Part shown: positions 3,793 to 3,843 of the stretch, piece by piece
Layout: each line of letters begins with the position of its first letter
Numbering within the stretch: position 1 is the stretch's first letter
IMG/VR virus record: IMGVR_UViG_2562617057_000004
Coordinates: 1 to 10,981 of that record
From: a virus
Lineage: Duplodnaviria > Heunggongvirae > Uroviricota > Caudoviricetes
Reading direction: 5' to 3' (one strand)
Length of the DNA: 10,981 bases
Notes under the pieces: generated by a model
The model's database searches: none
What the model was told of the DNA's origin: nothing
The model's input: only the letters and a program-made list of their open reading frames with translations
Made by a program: the position numbers and the translations under genes

Positions 3793-3843
3793 AACTGGAT
3801 GTTCATCCAGTTATGATTATAATCATGATTTCATATTTCGCAA
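3793..3843 (-). promoter_or_regulatory. Putative sigma70 promoter with palindromic operators for the capsid operon
   Basis: Minus strand TTGCGA -16 nt- TATAAT; perfect 14-bp palindrome ATGATTATAATCAT (3813-3826) over the -10; inverted repeat AACTGGAT-gttc-ATCCAGTT (3793-3812) near +1. Confidence 0.45.

What the first reader, a model, noticed from the sequence alone, without database searches (positions are those of the whole stretch)
3793..3843. Capsid operon promoter buried in perfect palindromes
The -10 TATAAT lies at the centre of a perfect 14-bp palindrome and an 8-bp-arm inverted repeat sits at the transcription start. This looks like a tightly gated promoter, plausibly switched on by a helper or island factor only during the helper lytic cycle.
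Basis: partly seen in the sequence, partly recalled or inferred. Interest (0 to 1): 0.5.

Follow-up and report, generated by a model that had tools for sequence, protein, structure and literature searches.

The report
SOS-gated capsid promoter of a phage satellite
The palindromes are real and sit on the promoter of the capsid-gene operon of an E. coli phage satellite, but the one at the transcription start is most likely a binding site for the host DNA-damage repressor LexA, not for a helper-phage or island protein.

Summary
The window is an EcCICFT073-type phage-inducible chromosomal island (PICI) of E. coli. Its capsid operon runs on the minus strand. The promoter is -35 TTGCGA (3843-3838), a 16-nt spacer, and -10 TATAAT (3821-3816).

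Both palindromes exist. The 14-bp one is at 3813-3826. The start-site repeat has perfect 15-nt arms (3787-3801/3804-3818), not 8; no shuffle reached that length.

Comparison with about 60 relatives shows that neither the perfect arms nor the 14-bp palindrome is the conserved feature. The conserved part is a 20-bp core, AACTGGATGAACATCCAGTT (3793-3812), with CTG-N10-CAG spacing.
- Its heterology index is 7.0 against 18 published E. coli LexA boxes (recA 6.6, ruvA 8.5).
- Divergent relatives drift towards the LexA consensus, for example TACTGTATATAAATTCAGTT.
- Pairing in the arms shows no covariation.

The best reading is a LexA operator across the start site. This parallels the LexA-controlled packaging operon of staphylococcal SaPIs. 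I found no report of it for Gram-negative PICIs.

Two older dyads (ATTKCA-N5-TGMAAT, 3828-3844 and 3858-3874) occur in all relatives, including lineages without the box. Their binding factor is unknown.

No binding or expression test was possible. The finding is a new member of a known kind, of moderate interest.

The parts
3838..3843 (-). -35 hexamer TTGCGA of the capsid-operon promoter
   Evidence: Promoter scan, 10/12 match with a 16-nt spacer. TTGC is conserved in all relatives.
3816..3821 (-). -10 hexamer TATAAT
   Evidence: TATAAT is invariant in the E. coli, Salmonella, L009 and L010 relatives. It is TAAAAT at the same spacing in the lineages without the box.
3793..3812 (.). LexA-type SOS box, AACTGGATGAACATCCAGTT on the minus strand (CTG-N10-CAG). 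It spans about -4 to +16 of the predicted start (about 3808-3809).
   Evidence: Heterology index 6.98 against 18 published E. coli boxes, inside the range of proven boxes. It is the best site in the window. Shuffles reached it in 1 of 300 (window) and 0 of 3000 (intergenic region). A box lies at the same position in 34 of 43 distinct relatives. EcCICFT073 has the identical box.
3787..3818 (.). Perfect 15-nt-arm inverted repeat with a 2-nt gap. It is the LexA-type box plus 6 extra nt on each side.
   Evidence: The outer arms are not maintained by compensatory change: pair 6-27 is unpaired in 8 of 18 variants, and covariation is not above the shuffles.
3813..3826 (.). Perfect 14-bp palindrome ATGATTATAATCAT around the -10
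   Evidence: Only the inner GATTAnAATC part is widely conserved. It is not palindromic in the Salmonella and Edwardsiella relatives. It is most likely a by-product of the -10 and its flanks.
3828..3844 (.). Dyad O1 (minus strand ATTGCG-aaata-TGAAAT), overlapping the -35 hexamer and the spacer and ending 6 nt before the -10
   Evidence: O1 and O2 are the only matches in the window to ATTKCA-N5-TGMAAT at <=1 mismatch (0.24 expected). A looser pattern adds one site at 8979-8995. The 6-5-6 dyad sits at a fixed position in every relative, with conserved half-sites and a variable spacer.
3858..3874 (.). Dyad O2 (minus strand ATTTCA-taatt-TGCAAC), 30 bp centre-to-centre upstream of O1
   Evidence: The gap to O1 is 13 nt in all relatives except Edwardsiella, where it is 15 nt.
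3916..3964 (-). Intrinsic terminator that closes the upstream replication/ssb unit (GC-rich stem followed by a U-run)
   Evidence: Inverted repeat I1. RNA fold -17.5 kcal/mol, z = -2.45. Conserved in the E. coli relatives.
3770..3776 (-). Ribosome-binding site AAGAGGA of the first gene
   Evidence: Read directly from the sequence. Conserved in most E. coli-type relatives.
3553..3759 (-). First gene of the operon: 68-aa protein of unknown function (c1498 family, PHROG 3255). Possibly ribbon-helix-helix, unproven.
   Evidence: It precedes the capsid gene in every locus examined.
2498..3553 (-). Lambda gpE-type major capsid protein homologue (c1499 family)
   Evidence: Pfam Phage_cap_E, E = 9e-50.
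2151..2486 (-). Lambda gpD-type head decoration protein homologue (c1500 family)
   Evidence: Pfam HDPD, E = 2.9e-17.
1725..2138 (-). Fourth gene of the unit (c1501 family, 137 aa)
   Evidence: Co-regulated with c1498-c1500 in CFT073.

Best explanation
Region 3793-3874 is the sigma-70 promoter of the island's capsid-gene operon, read on the minus strand. The operon runs 68-aa gene, E-type capsid, D-type decoration, 137-aa gene.

The 20-bp core of the start-site palindrome (3793-3812, CTG-N10-CAG) is an operator for the host LexA repressor. Bound LexA would cover about -4 to +16 and block initiation. DNA damage activates RecA and LexA cleaves itself. The same signal induces lambdoid helper prophages. 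The operon would then be released when a helper enters its lytic cycle.

This box is a lineage-specific layer on an older control region. That region holds two 17-bp dyads (O1 over the -35/spacer, O2 30 bp upstream) that occur in every relative. They presumably bind a dimeric regulator that has not been identified.

The perfect 15-nt arms and the perfect 14-bp palindrome in this window are allelic detail, not the functional units.

Shown here: the sequence features, their statistics, their conservation pattern and the match to published LexA boxes.
Inferred: the transcription start, LexA binding, SOS inducibility, and protein binding at O1/O2.
For: Promoter:
- 10/12 consensus match.
- It follows a terminator and precedes the ribosome-binding site and operon.
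- The architecture is conserved in about 60 loci.
- In CFT073, c1498-c1501 are co-regulated but rppA is not.

LexA box:
- Heterology index 6.98 with a matrix from 18 published E. coli boxes (PMC3009722). Leave-one-out values of the real boxes are 0.6-12.6; the CTGG...CCAG boxes of ruvA and cho score 8.5 and 7.9.
- The next best site in the window scores 12.3.
- Shuffles reach 7.0 or better in 1 of 300 (window) and 0 of 3000 (intergenic region).
- In real DNA there are about 2 sites at <=7 per Mb. In 107 kb of E. coli DNA, 2 of the 4 sites at <=10 are this promoter.
- A box lies at the same position in the E. coli, Salmonella, L009 and L010/L011 relatives (index 4.4-8.3). The most divergent versions move towards the consensus: TACTGTATATAAATTCAGTT and CATACAG.
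- Variants break the palindrome yet improve the LexA score, and arm pairing shows no covariation.
- The identical box is present in the experimentally studied EcCICFT073.

Precedent: the SaPI packaging operon I is LexA-controlled (PMC5052747).
Against: - There are no binding or expression data. No paper in the searched library links LexA to Gram-negative PICIs.
- The centre of the box (ATGAACAT) is less AT-rich than in strong boxes, so affinity may be moderate.
- Nine of 43 distinct relatives lack a usable box: a separate sub-lineage, plus one variant with a 1-nt insertion. The separately sampled Edwardsiella loci also lack one. LexA control is therefore not essential to the module.
- In CFT073 the operon is detectably expressed and rises at 37 C while sulA does not. 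At least one LexA-independent input therefore exists, and repression is not absolute.
- The heterology matrix is my own rebuild from 18 sites, not the original Lewis matrix.
- The transcription start is only predicted.
Confidence: 0.62

Rival explanations
1. The start-site palindrome is the operator of an island-encoded dimeric regulator. Candidates are the 68-aa first-gene product acting as a ribbon-helix-helix autorepressor, or AlpA. The resemblance to a LexA box would then be coincidental.
For: - A perfect 32-bp dyad over the start site is typical of autoregulated phage and plasmid operators.
- The first gene encodes a small strand-helix-helix protein.
- That protein has sub-threshold RHH_1 / BrnA hits in the expected register, and a divergent family member does too.
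- AlpA is the known activator of these islands (PMC6092414).
Against: - The putative DNA-reading strand of the 68-aa protein (GGV[ST][VI]YISPDI) is essentially unchanged between relatives whose palindromes differ at 6 or more core positions. It is also unchanged in Edwardsiella, which has no palindrome.
- Sequence drift in the box goes towards the LexA consensus, which an island-specific protein would not explain.
- The outer arms show no compensatory evolution.
- No copy of the palindrome half-site occurs elsewhere in the island.
Confidence: 0.12
2. The long repeat acts mainly as RNA. In transcripts reading through from the replication genes it would form a 15-bp hairpin followed by a U-run, acting as a terminator or insulator. 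In the operon's own mRNA a shorter 5' stem-loop would stabilise the message.
For: - The terminator scanner flags the same repeat plus T-run in EcCICFT073.
- The full hairpin folds at -18.9 kcal/mol.
- Several variants keep pairing through G-U wobbles, and two variants (L135, L160) carry compensated changes.
Against: - Covariation is not above the shuffled controls: score 0.095 against 0.083 +/- 0.011, reached by 76 of 500 shuffles. Pair 6-27 is unpaired in 8 of 18 variants.
- The base of the stem is AT-rich, which is poor for an intrinsic terminator.
- A strong terminator already lies about 100 nt upstream.
- The promoter's own transcript would contain only 4-8 bp of the stem.
Confidence: 0.07
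3. Another host or helper-phage DNA-binding protein gates the promoter, not LexA. Candidates are a lambdoid repressor-like or late regulator, CytR acting at the TTGCA-type dyads, or Fur acting at the TGATTATAATCA palindrome.
For: - The dyads O1/O2 contain TTGCA/TGCAA half-sites like the CytR motif (PMC3454398).
- The 14-bp palindrome matches the Fur consensus at 14 of 19 positions (24 of 2000 shuffles reach this).
- CFT073 shows a LexA-independent temperature response.
- Helper phages are known to trigger the island cycle.
Against: - By eye I saw no CRP sites flanking the dyads, and CytR needs them. I did not scan for them.
- The Fur-like match is weak and absent in the Salmonella relative (11/19).
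- None of these candidates explains the CTG-N10-CAG core and its drift towards the LexA consensus.
- The promoter module has no match in 50,697 deposited phage genomes.
- This reading fits better as an additional input at O1/O2 than as a replacement for LexA.
Confidence: 0.1
4. The palindromes have no function of their own. They are chance symmetry in an AT-rich promoter region.
For: - The 14-bp palindrome is only marginally unexpected, and part of it is forced by the self-complementary ATTATAAT.
- The outer 6 nt of the long arms vary freely among relatives.
Against: - No shuffle reached the 15-nt arms.
- The 20-bp core is conserved in position, with CTG and CAG invariant in all 18 distinct variants of the box lineages.
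- Chance does not explain a LexA-grade score at the same spot in lineages that have diverged by about 35% within the box.
Confidence: 0.05

Closest known systems
LexA-controlled packaging operon ('operon I') of Staphylococcus aureus pathogenicity islands (SaPIs)
   Same: Both are phage satellites whose morphogenesis and interference genes sit behind their own promoter carrying a host LexA operator. The SOS response therefore releases them when helper prophages are induced (PMC5052747, citing Ubeda 2007).
   Different: The host phylum and the LexA motif differ (here the gammaproteobacterial CTGT-N8-ACAG type). The genes are unrelated: here lambda E/D-type capsid and decoration homologues rather than terS/cpmAB/pti. 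The SaPI case is experimentally shown, whereas this one is a sequence prediction.
E. coli SOS boxes of the CTGG...CCAG subtype (ruvAB, cho)
   Same: Same CTG-N10-CAG spacing and the same CTGGAT...ATCCAG half-sites (ruvA CGCTGGATATCTATCCAGCA, cho CACTGGATAGATAACCAGCA). The heterology indices are similar (7.0 against 8.5 and 7.9).
   Different: The central 4 bp are GAAC rather than an A/T-only run. The site is on a mobile island, not a chromosomal repair gene. Binding is untested.
EcCICFT073 and related Gram-negative PICIs (Fillol-Salom 2018, 2019)
   Same: Same island family: int, alpA, D5-type primase, ssb, and the c1498-c1501 homologues. EcCICFT073 has the identical promoter, box and dyads.
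   Different: Published regulation centres on AlpA, whose expression is helper-dependent and SOS-independent. Neither paper mentions LexA control of the island itself; I did not check them for any other description of this promoter. The island in the window lacks rppA and the lambda-type cosN sites, and it carries a different cos-like block.
LexA-controlled switch genes of temperate phages, such as the coliphage 186 tum antirepressor and the Gifsy-type antirepressors (from my own knowledge, not checked here)
   Same: Mobile elements that place a host LexA box on one key promoter in order to sense the SOS response.
   Different: Those boxes control a regulator that flips the lysis-lysogeny switch. 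Here the box sits directly on structural (capsid-like) genes of a satellite.

Membership tests
Gammaproteobacterial LexA (SOS) box | 16-bp core CTG-N10-CAG (consensus TACTGTATATATATACAGTA) with dyad symmetry | tested here: met
   AACTGGATGAACATCCAGTT at 3793-3812. CTG and CAG are invariant in all 18 distinct variants of the box lineages.
Gammaproteobacterial LexA (SOS) box | Heterology index within the range of experimentally proven boxes | tested here: met
   6.98, against 0.6-12.6 for leave-one-out values of 18 published boxes. Caveat: the matrix was rebuilt here from PMC3009722 Table 4 and is not the original Lewis matrix.
Gammaproteobacterial LexA (SOS) box | Position overlapping the promoter or transcription start of the regulated gene | tested here: inconclusive
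   The box begins 4 nt after the -10 and spans about -4 to +16 of the predicted start. The start itself is not mapped.
Gammaproteobacterial LexA (SOS) box | Conservation of a box at the orthologous promoter in related elements | tested here: met
   Present in 34 of 43 distinct upstream regions from a protein-anchored sample, index 5.5-9.2. Also present in the Salmonella, L009 and L010/L011 relatives, index 4.4-8.3. Absent in one sub-lineage and in Edwardsiella.
Gammaproteobacterial LexA (SOS) box | LexA binding in vitro or in vivo, and derepression on SOS induction | not testable with these tools
   No ChIP or SOS transcriptome covering the island was found. The only expression data are for a temperature shift without sulA induction.
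Sigma-70 promoter | -35 and -10 hexamers with a 16-18-nt spacer upstream of the operon | tested here: met
   TTGCGA, 16 nt, TATAAT; 10 of 12 matches. Conserved across relatives.
Sigma-70 promoter | Mapped transcription start and activity | not testable with these tools
   Indirect only: c1498-c1501 behave as one unit in CFT073 RNA-seq.
Ribbon-helix-helix autoregulated operator | The first gene product has an RHH fold | tested here: inconclusive
   - The AF2 model shows strand, helix, helix (pLDDT 77).
- Pfam RHH_1 E = 0.15 and BrnA E = 0.12, both below the cut-offs.
- hhalign against Arc/Mnt/CopG/ParD gives 0.4% probability.
- The family has only 15 representatives among 1.84 billion proteins.
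Ribbon-helix-helix autoregulated operator | Operator sequence co-varies with the protein's DNA-reading strand | tested here: not met
   For the start-site palindrome, the strand is constant while the palindrome changes or is absent. The constant strand fits the constant O1/O2 dyads, which remain a possible target.
Intrinsic terminator / structured RNA | Stem maintained by compensatory changes, GC-rich base, U-run | tested here: not met
   Covariation is not above the controls (76 of 500 shuffles). The base of the stem is AT-rich. The U-run is present.
EcCICFT073-type PICI | int, alpA, primase-replication module, then a capsid-like/interference module | tested here: met
   Pfam hits and synteny with EcCICFT073.
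EcCICFT073-type PICI | rpp gene and lambda-type cos sites | tested here: not met
   The window has no rppA homologue and no exact cosN. A cos-like block of another lambdoid family lies at 3977-4167.
Phage cos site (as an alternative identity for the palindromic region) | cosN-like sequence within or beside the feature | tested here: not met
   There is no cosN-like sequence at 3787-3880. The EcCICFT073 cosN sites are 2-3 kb downstream of the identical promoter.

The most novel reading that the evidence does not exclude
The promoter is a two-key lock. An ancient operator pair (O1/O2, ATTKCA-N5-TGMAAT, 30 bp apart, with O1 between the -35 and -10) is bound by a regulator that has not yet been described. 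This could be the island-specific 68-aa protein encoded by the first gene, or a helper-phage factor. The pair travels with satellite capsid modules across Enterobacterales. One lineage later added a host LexA box. Capsid-interference genes would then fire only when both the SOS signal and the second signal are present.
Probability: 0.3. Interest if true: 0.6.

Novelty: new member of a known kind. Interest (0 to 1): 0.42.

Why it matters
[quoted passage not shown] A LexA operator on the capsid and interference operon would add a direct host DNA-damage input to these islands. It would mirror staphylococcal SaPIs, which would be convergent evolution. It could also explain how the late module is timed to prophage induction.

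The prediction is immediately testable, because the identical site is present in the established EcCICFT073 system.

The universally conserved O1/O2 dyads mark a second regulator, still unknown, of a gene module found in at least 80-170 of 5,426 complete E. coli genomes.

Tried and rejected
- Capsid-protein scan of the one-genome-per-species collection: no relatives confirmed.
The same pattern in the viral collection was useful after filtering.
- cos-site reading of the palindromic region: rejected. No cosN-like sequence lies there, and the EcCICFT073 cosN sites lie elsewhere.
- Plus-strand promoter using the same TATAAT: by eye there is no acceptable -35 (CTGGAT), and the scan lists no plus-strand site.
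- AlpA as a Q-like antiterminator loading at O1: rejected as an argument from homology. Pseudomonas AlpA is a larger eight-helix, Q-like protein unrelated to the Pfam AlpA of this island.
- CytR at the TTGCA dyads: weak. The half-site orientation and spacing fit only loosely, and I saw no CRP sites by eye.
- Fur at the 14-bp palindrome: weak and not conserved.
- Hairpin covariation: not significant.
- Search of 50,697 deposited phage genomes for the promoter plus small-gene module: no match.
- First guess at the CFT073 island coordinates hit a lambdoid prophage instead.

Full report
**What the window is.** The window is an integrative island of E. coli. A 701-nt segment (3500-4200) has a 100% match in NZ_CP065615. 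All genes run on the minus strand:
- integrase, 9743-10981
- AlpA, 9124-9420
- two C4 antisense RNAs and isrK, 7631-8294
- a D5-type primase, 5141-6895
- SSB, 4174-4596
- a 68-aa ORF, 3553-3759
- a lambda gpE-type capsid protein, 2498-3553
- a lambda gpD-type decoration protein, 2151-2486
- a 137-aa ORF, 1725-2138

This is the architecture of EcCICFT073, the model Gram-negative phage-inducible chromosomal island. There the capsid and decoration homologues are c1499 and c1500 (PMC6092414). I located EcCICFT073 in CFT073 at L255:15931-26655.

**Checking the observation.** Both palindromes exist.
- The 14-bp palindrome ATGATTATAATCAT is at 3813-3826.
- The repeat at the start site has perfect 15-nt arms (3787-3801 / 3804-3818, 2-nt gap), not 8-nt arms.
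- The long repeat is the longest perfect inverted repeat in the window. Shuffles reached at most 12 nt.
- The 14-bp palindrome alone is only mildly unusual: 0.5 expected per window and 0.036 per intergenic region.
- The promoter reads on the minus strand: TTGCGA (3843-3838), 16 nt, TATAAT (3821-3816).
- It lies about 100 nt downstream of an intrinsic terminator (3916-3964; -17.5 kcal/mol).
- It lies about 50 nt upstream of the 68-aa gene, whose stop codon overlaps the capsid gene's start codon.

**Comparative analysis.** I collected three sets of upstream regions:
- diverged E. coli copies;
- contigs encoding distant homologues of the 68-aa protein, from Salmonella, Edwardsiella and metagenomes;
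- two unbiased samples from the viral-contig collection. One was anchored only on an upstream half-site plus the -10. The other was anchored only on the small protein.

Three results follow.

First, the perfect 15-nt arms are one common allele. Positions 6-8 of the promoter-proximal arm vary freely, pair 6-27 is unpaired in 8 of 18 distinct variants, and pairing shows no covariation above the shuffled controls (score 0.095 against 0.083 +/- 0.011; 76 of 500 shuffles reach it).

Second, the conserved part is the core CTGGATG-aa-CATCCAG, that is CTG-N10-CAG. The variants are:
- Salmonella: CTGGATAaaTATCCAG
- L009: CTGGATGcaCATACAG
- L010/L011: (C/T)ACTGTATATAAATTCAGTT
- E. coli variants: CTGGATAaaCATCCAG and ...CATACAG

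Several of these break the palindrome while approaching TACTGTATATATATACAGTA.

Third, two 17-bp dyads lie upstream: O2, then 13 nt, then O1, then 6 nt, then the -10. Their half-site is TG(C/A)AA(T/C). They are present at fixed spacing in every relative, with conserved half-sites and variable spacers.

**The LexA test.** The consensus LexA box is TACTG(TA)5CAGTA (PMC6590174; PMC8072944). I built a frequency matrix and a Lewis-type heterology index from the 18 E. coli boxes listed in PMC3009722 Table 4. That list includes ruvA (CTGGATATCTATCCAG) and cho (CTGGATAGATAACCAG).
- The window site AACTGGATGAACATCCAGTT (3793-3812) scores 6.98.
- Leave-one-out values for real boxes run from 0.6 to 12.6: recA 6.6, uvrD 7.8, cho 7.9, ruvA 8.5, polB 12.6.
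- The next best site in the window scores 12.3.
- Shuffles reach 7.0 or better in 1 of 300 (whole window) and 0 of 3000 (intergenic region).
- In 874 kb of unrelated bacterial DNA there are 2 sites at <=7.
- In 107 kb of E. coli DNA, two of the four sites at <=10 are this promoter, in two strains.
- Relatives carry a box at the same position with indices of 4.4-9.2.
- EcCICFT073 has the identical box and the identical arms.
- The box starts 4 nt after the -10. LexA would therefore cover about -4 to +16 of a start predicted at about 3808.

**Limits of the LexA reading.**
- Nine of 43 distinct upstream regions in the protein-anchored sample lack a usable box. One has a 1-nt insertion (L262). The others form a sub-lineage (L307-L313, L315) with TAAAAT as the -10 and both dyads but no box. 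The Edwardsiella loci, sampled separately, are the same. The box is therefore a lineage-specific layer on a dyad-controlled promoter.
- In CFT073 shifted from 23 C to 37 C, c1498, c1499, c1500 and c1501 rise by log2FC 2.2, 2.1, 1.5 and 1.2. rppA (c1503) and sulA do not change (PMC12890032 supplement). This supports c1498-c1501 as one transcription unit. It also shows a LexA-independent input and a non-zero basal level.
- No paper in the searched library reports LexA control of a Gram-negative PICI. The precedent is SaPI operon I (PMC5052747).

- The 68-aa protein belongs to a very narrow family: 15 representatives among 1.84 billion proteins. It has no Pfam or NCBIfam assignment, and PHROG 3255 is of unknown function.
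- An AlphaFold model gives strand, helix, helix (pLDDT 77).
- RHH_1 and BrnA hits are sub-threshold, though in the expected register, in this protein. A divergent member shows the RHH_1 hit only.
- Its putative DNA-reading strand is constant across relatives whose start-site palindrome differs or is missing. If the protein binds DNA, the constant O1/O2 dyads are the better target.
- AlpA: no dyad or palindrome copies lie upstream of alpA. The AlpA antiterminator of Pseudomonas is an unrelated, larger protein.

**Other alternatives.**
- The full repeat plus its T-run looks terminator-like. However, it lacks covariation, it has an AT-rich stem base, and it is only partly transcribed from its own promoter.
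- A cos-site identity is excluded.
- The CytR and Fur resemblances are weak.
- The promoter module is absent from deposited phage genomes.

**Verdict.** The feature is the promoter of the satellite's capsid-gene operon. Its start-site palindrome is best explained as a host LexA operator (confidence about 0.6), superimposed on an older pair of dyad operators for an unidentified regulator. The finding is a new member of a known kind: an SOS box on a mobile element, and the Gram-negative counterpart of LexA control of SaPI operon I. It can be tested directly in EcCICFT073.

Noticed in passing
window 3977-4167: The non-coding block between the ssb stop codon and the terminator is about 95% identical to the stretch between the lysis genes and the DUF1441/terminase genes of a lambdoid prophage (L256). 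The same block occurs in well over 1,000 further E. coli genomes without the island flanks. On the minus strand it reads ...GGGTCC...CACGGGGCGGGAGCGGCGCGG..., which resembles lambda cosQ/cosN as I recall them. It is probably a cos site borrowed from a different helper family. EcCICFT073 has a PerC gene at this position instead.
   Followed up: partly
window 1-1700 compared with L255:25500-26700: The island in the window has no rppA homologue and no exact lambda cosN. EcCICFT073 has exact cosN at L255:25559 and 26298, flanking rppA. The left end of this island copy looks different or degenerate.
   Followed up: partly
window 4957-4984 and 5030-5070: Perfect inverted repeats built on GGTAGACAG (9-nt and 13-nt arms) lie just downstream of the primase gene. 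This is where PICI replication origins are reported to lie.
   Followed up: no
window 7412-8300: Two tandem units each hold a C4-type antisense RNA (7631-7719 and 8109-8196) and an Icd-like small ORF ending in ...ARIRQG.... isrK is at 8218-8294. The long ORFs listed across this stretch are probably not real genes.
   Followed up: no
window 8979-8995; L255:18260-18276: A third sequence resembling the O1/O2 dyad (ATTGCAggtatGGCAAC, one mismatch) lies inside a small ORF near alpA, and it is conserved in EcCICFT073. It could be chance or a further site for the unknown dyad-binding factor.
   Followed up: no
L255:17289-17308 (EcCICFT073, int-alpA intergenic region): TACTGTTTTTTTATACACTG scores a heterology index of 5.7 but lacks the invariant CAG. 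It also reads as a GTGTA...TACAC repeat. The window has no equivalent. Published work says alpA is SOS-independent.
   Followed up: no
L262 (viral contig IMGVR_UViG_2529293138_000005), 54 nt upstream of the small gene: A natural variant with a 1-nt insertion in the box (GACTGGATGAACAATCCAGT) changes the spacing to CTG-N11-CAG. It would be a ready-made negative control for LexA binding.
   Followed up: no
L255:23463-25497 (c1498-c1501 of CFT073): Published RNA-seq shows these four genes rising 2- to 4-fold on a shift from 23 C to 37 C, without a change in sulA or rppA. This temperature input into the same promoter is unexplained.
   Followed up: partly
window 1725-2138: RefSeq calls the 137-aa product a 'head-tail connector'. 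It has no Pfam hit, and its only functional PHROG similarity is to the C-terminal end of head maturation proteases (phrog_53, E = 2e-8).
   Followed up: no
window 299-321 and 757-770: A perfect 11-nt-arm inverted repeat (AATTTCCACAG c CTGTGGAAATT) and a perfect 14-bp palindrome (GTGCAAATTTGCAC) lie near the left end of the window. Their function is unknown.
   Followed up: no
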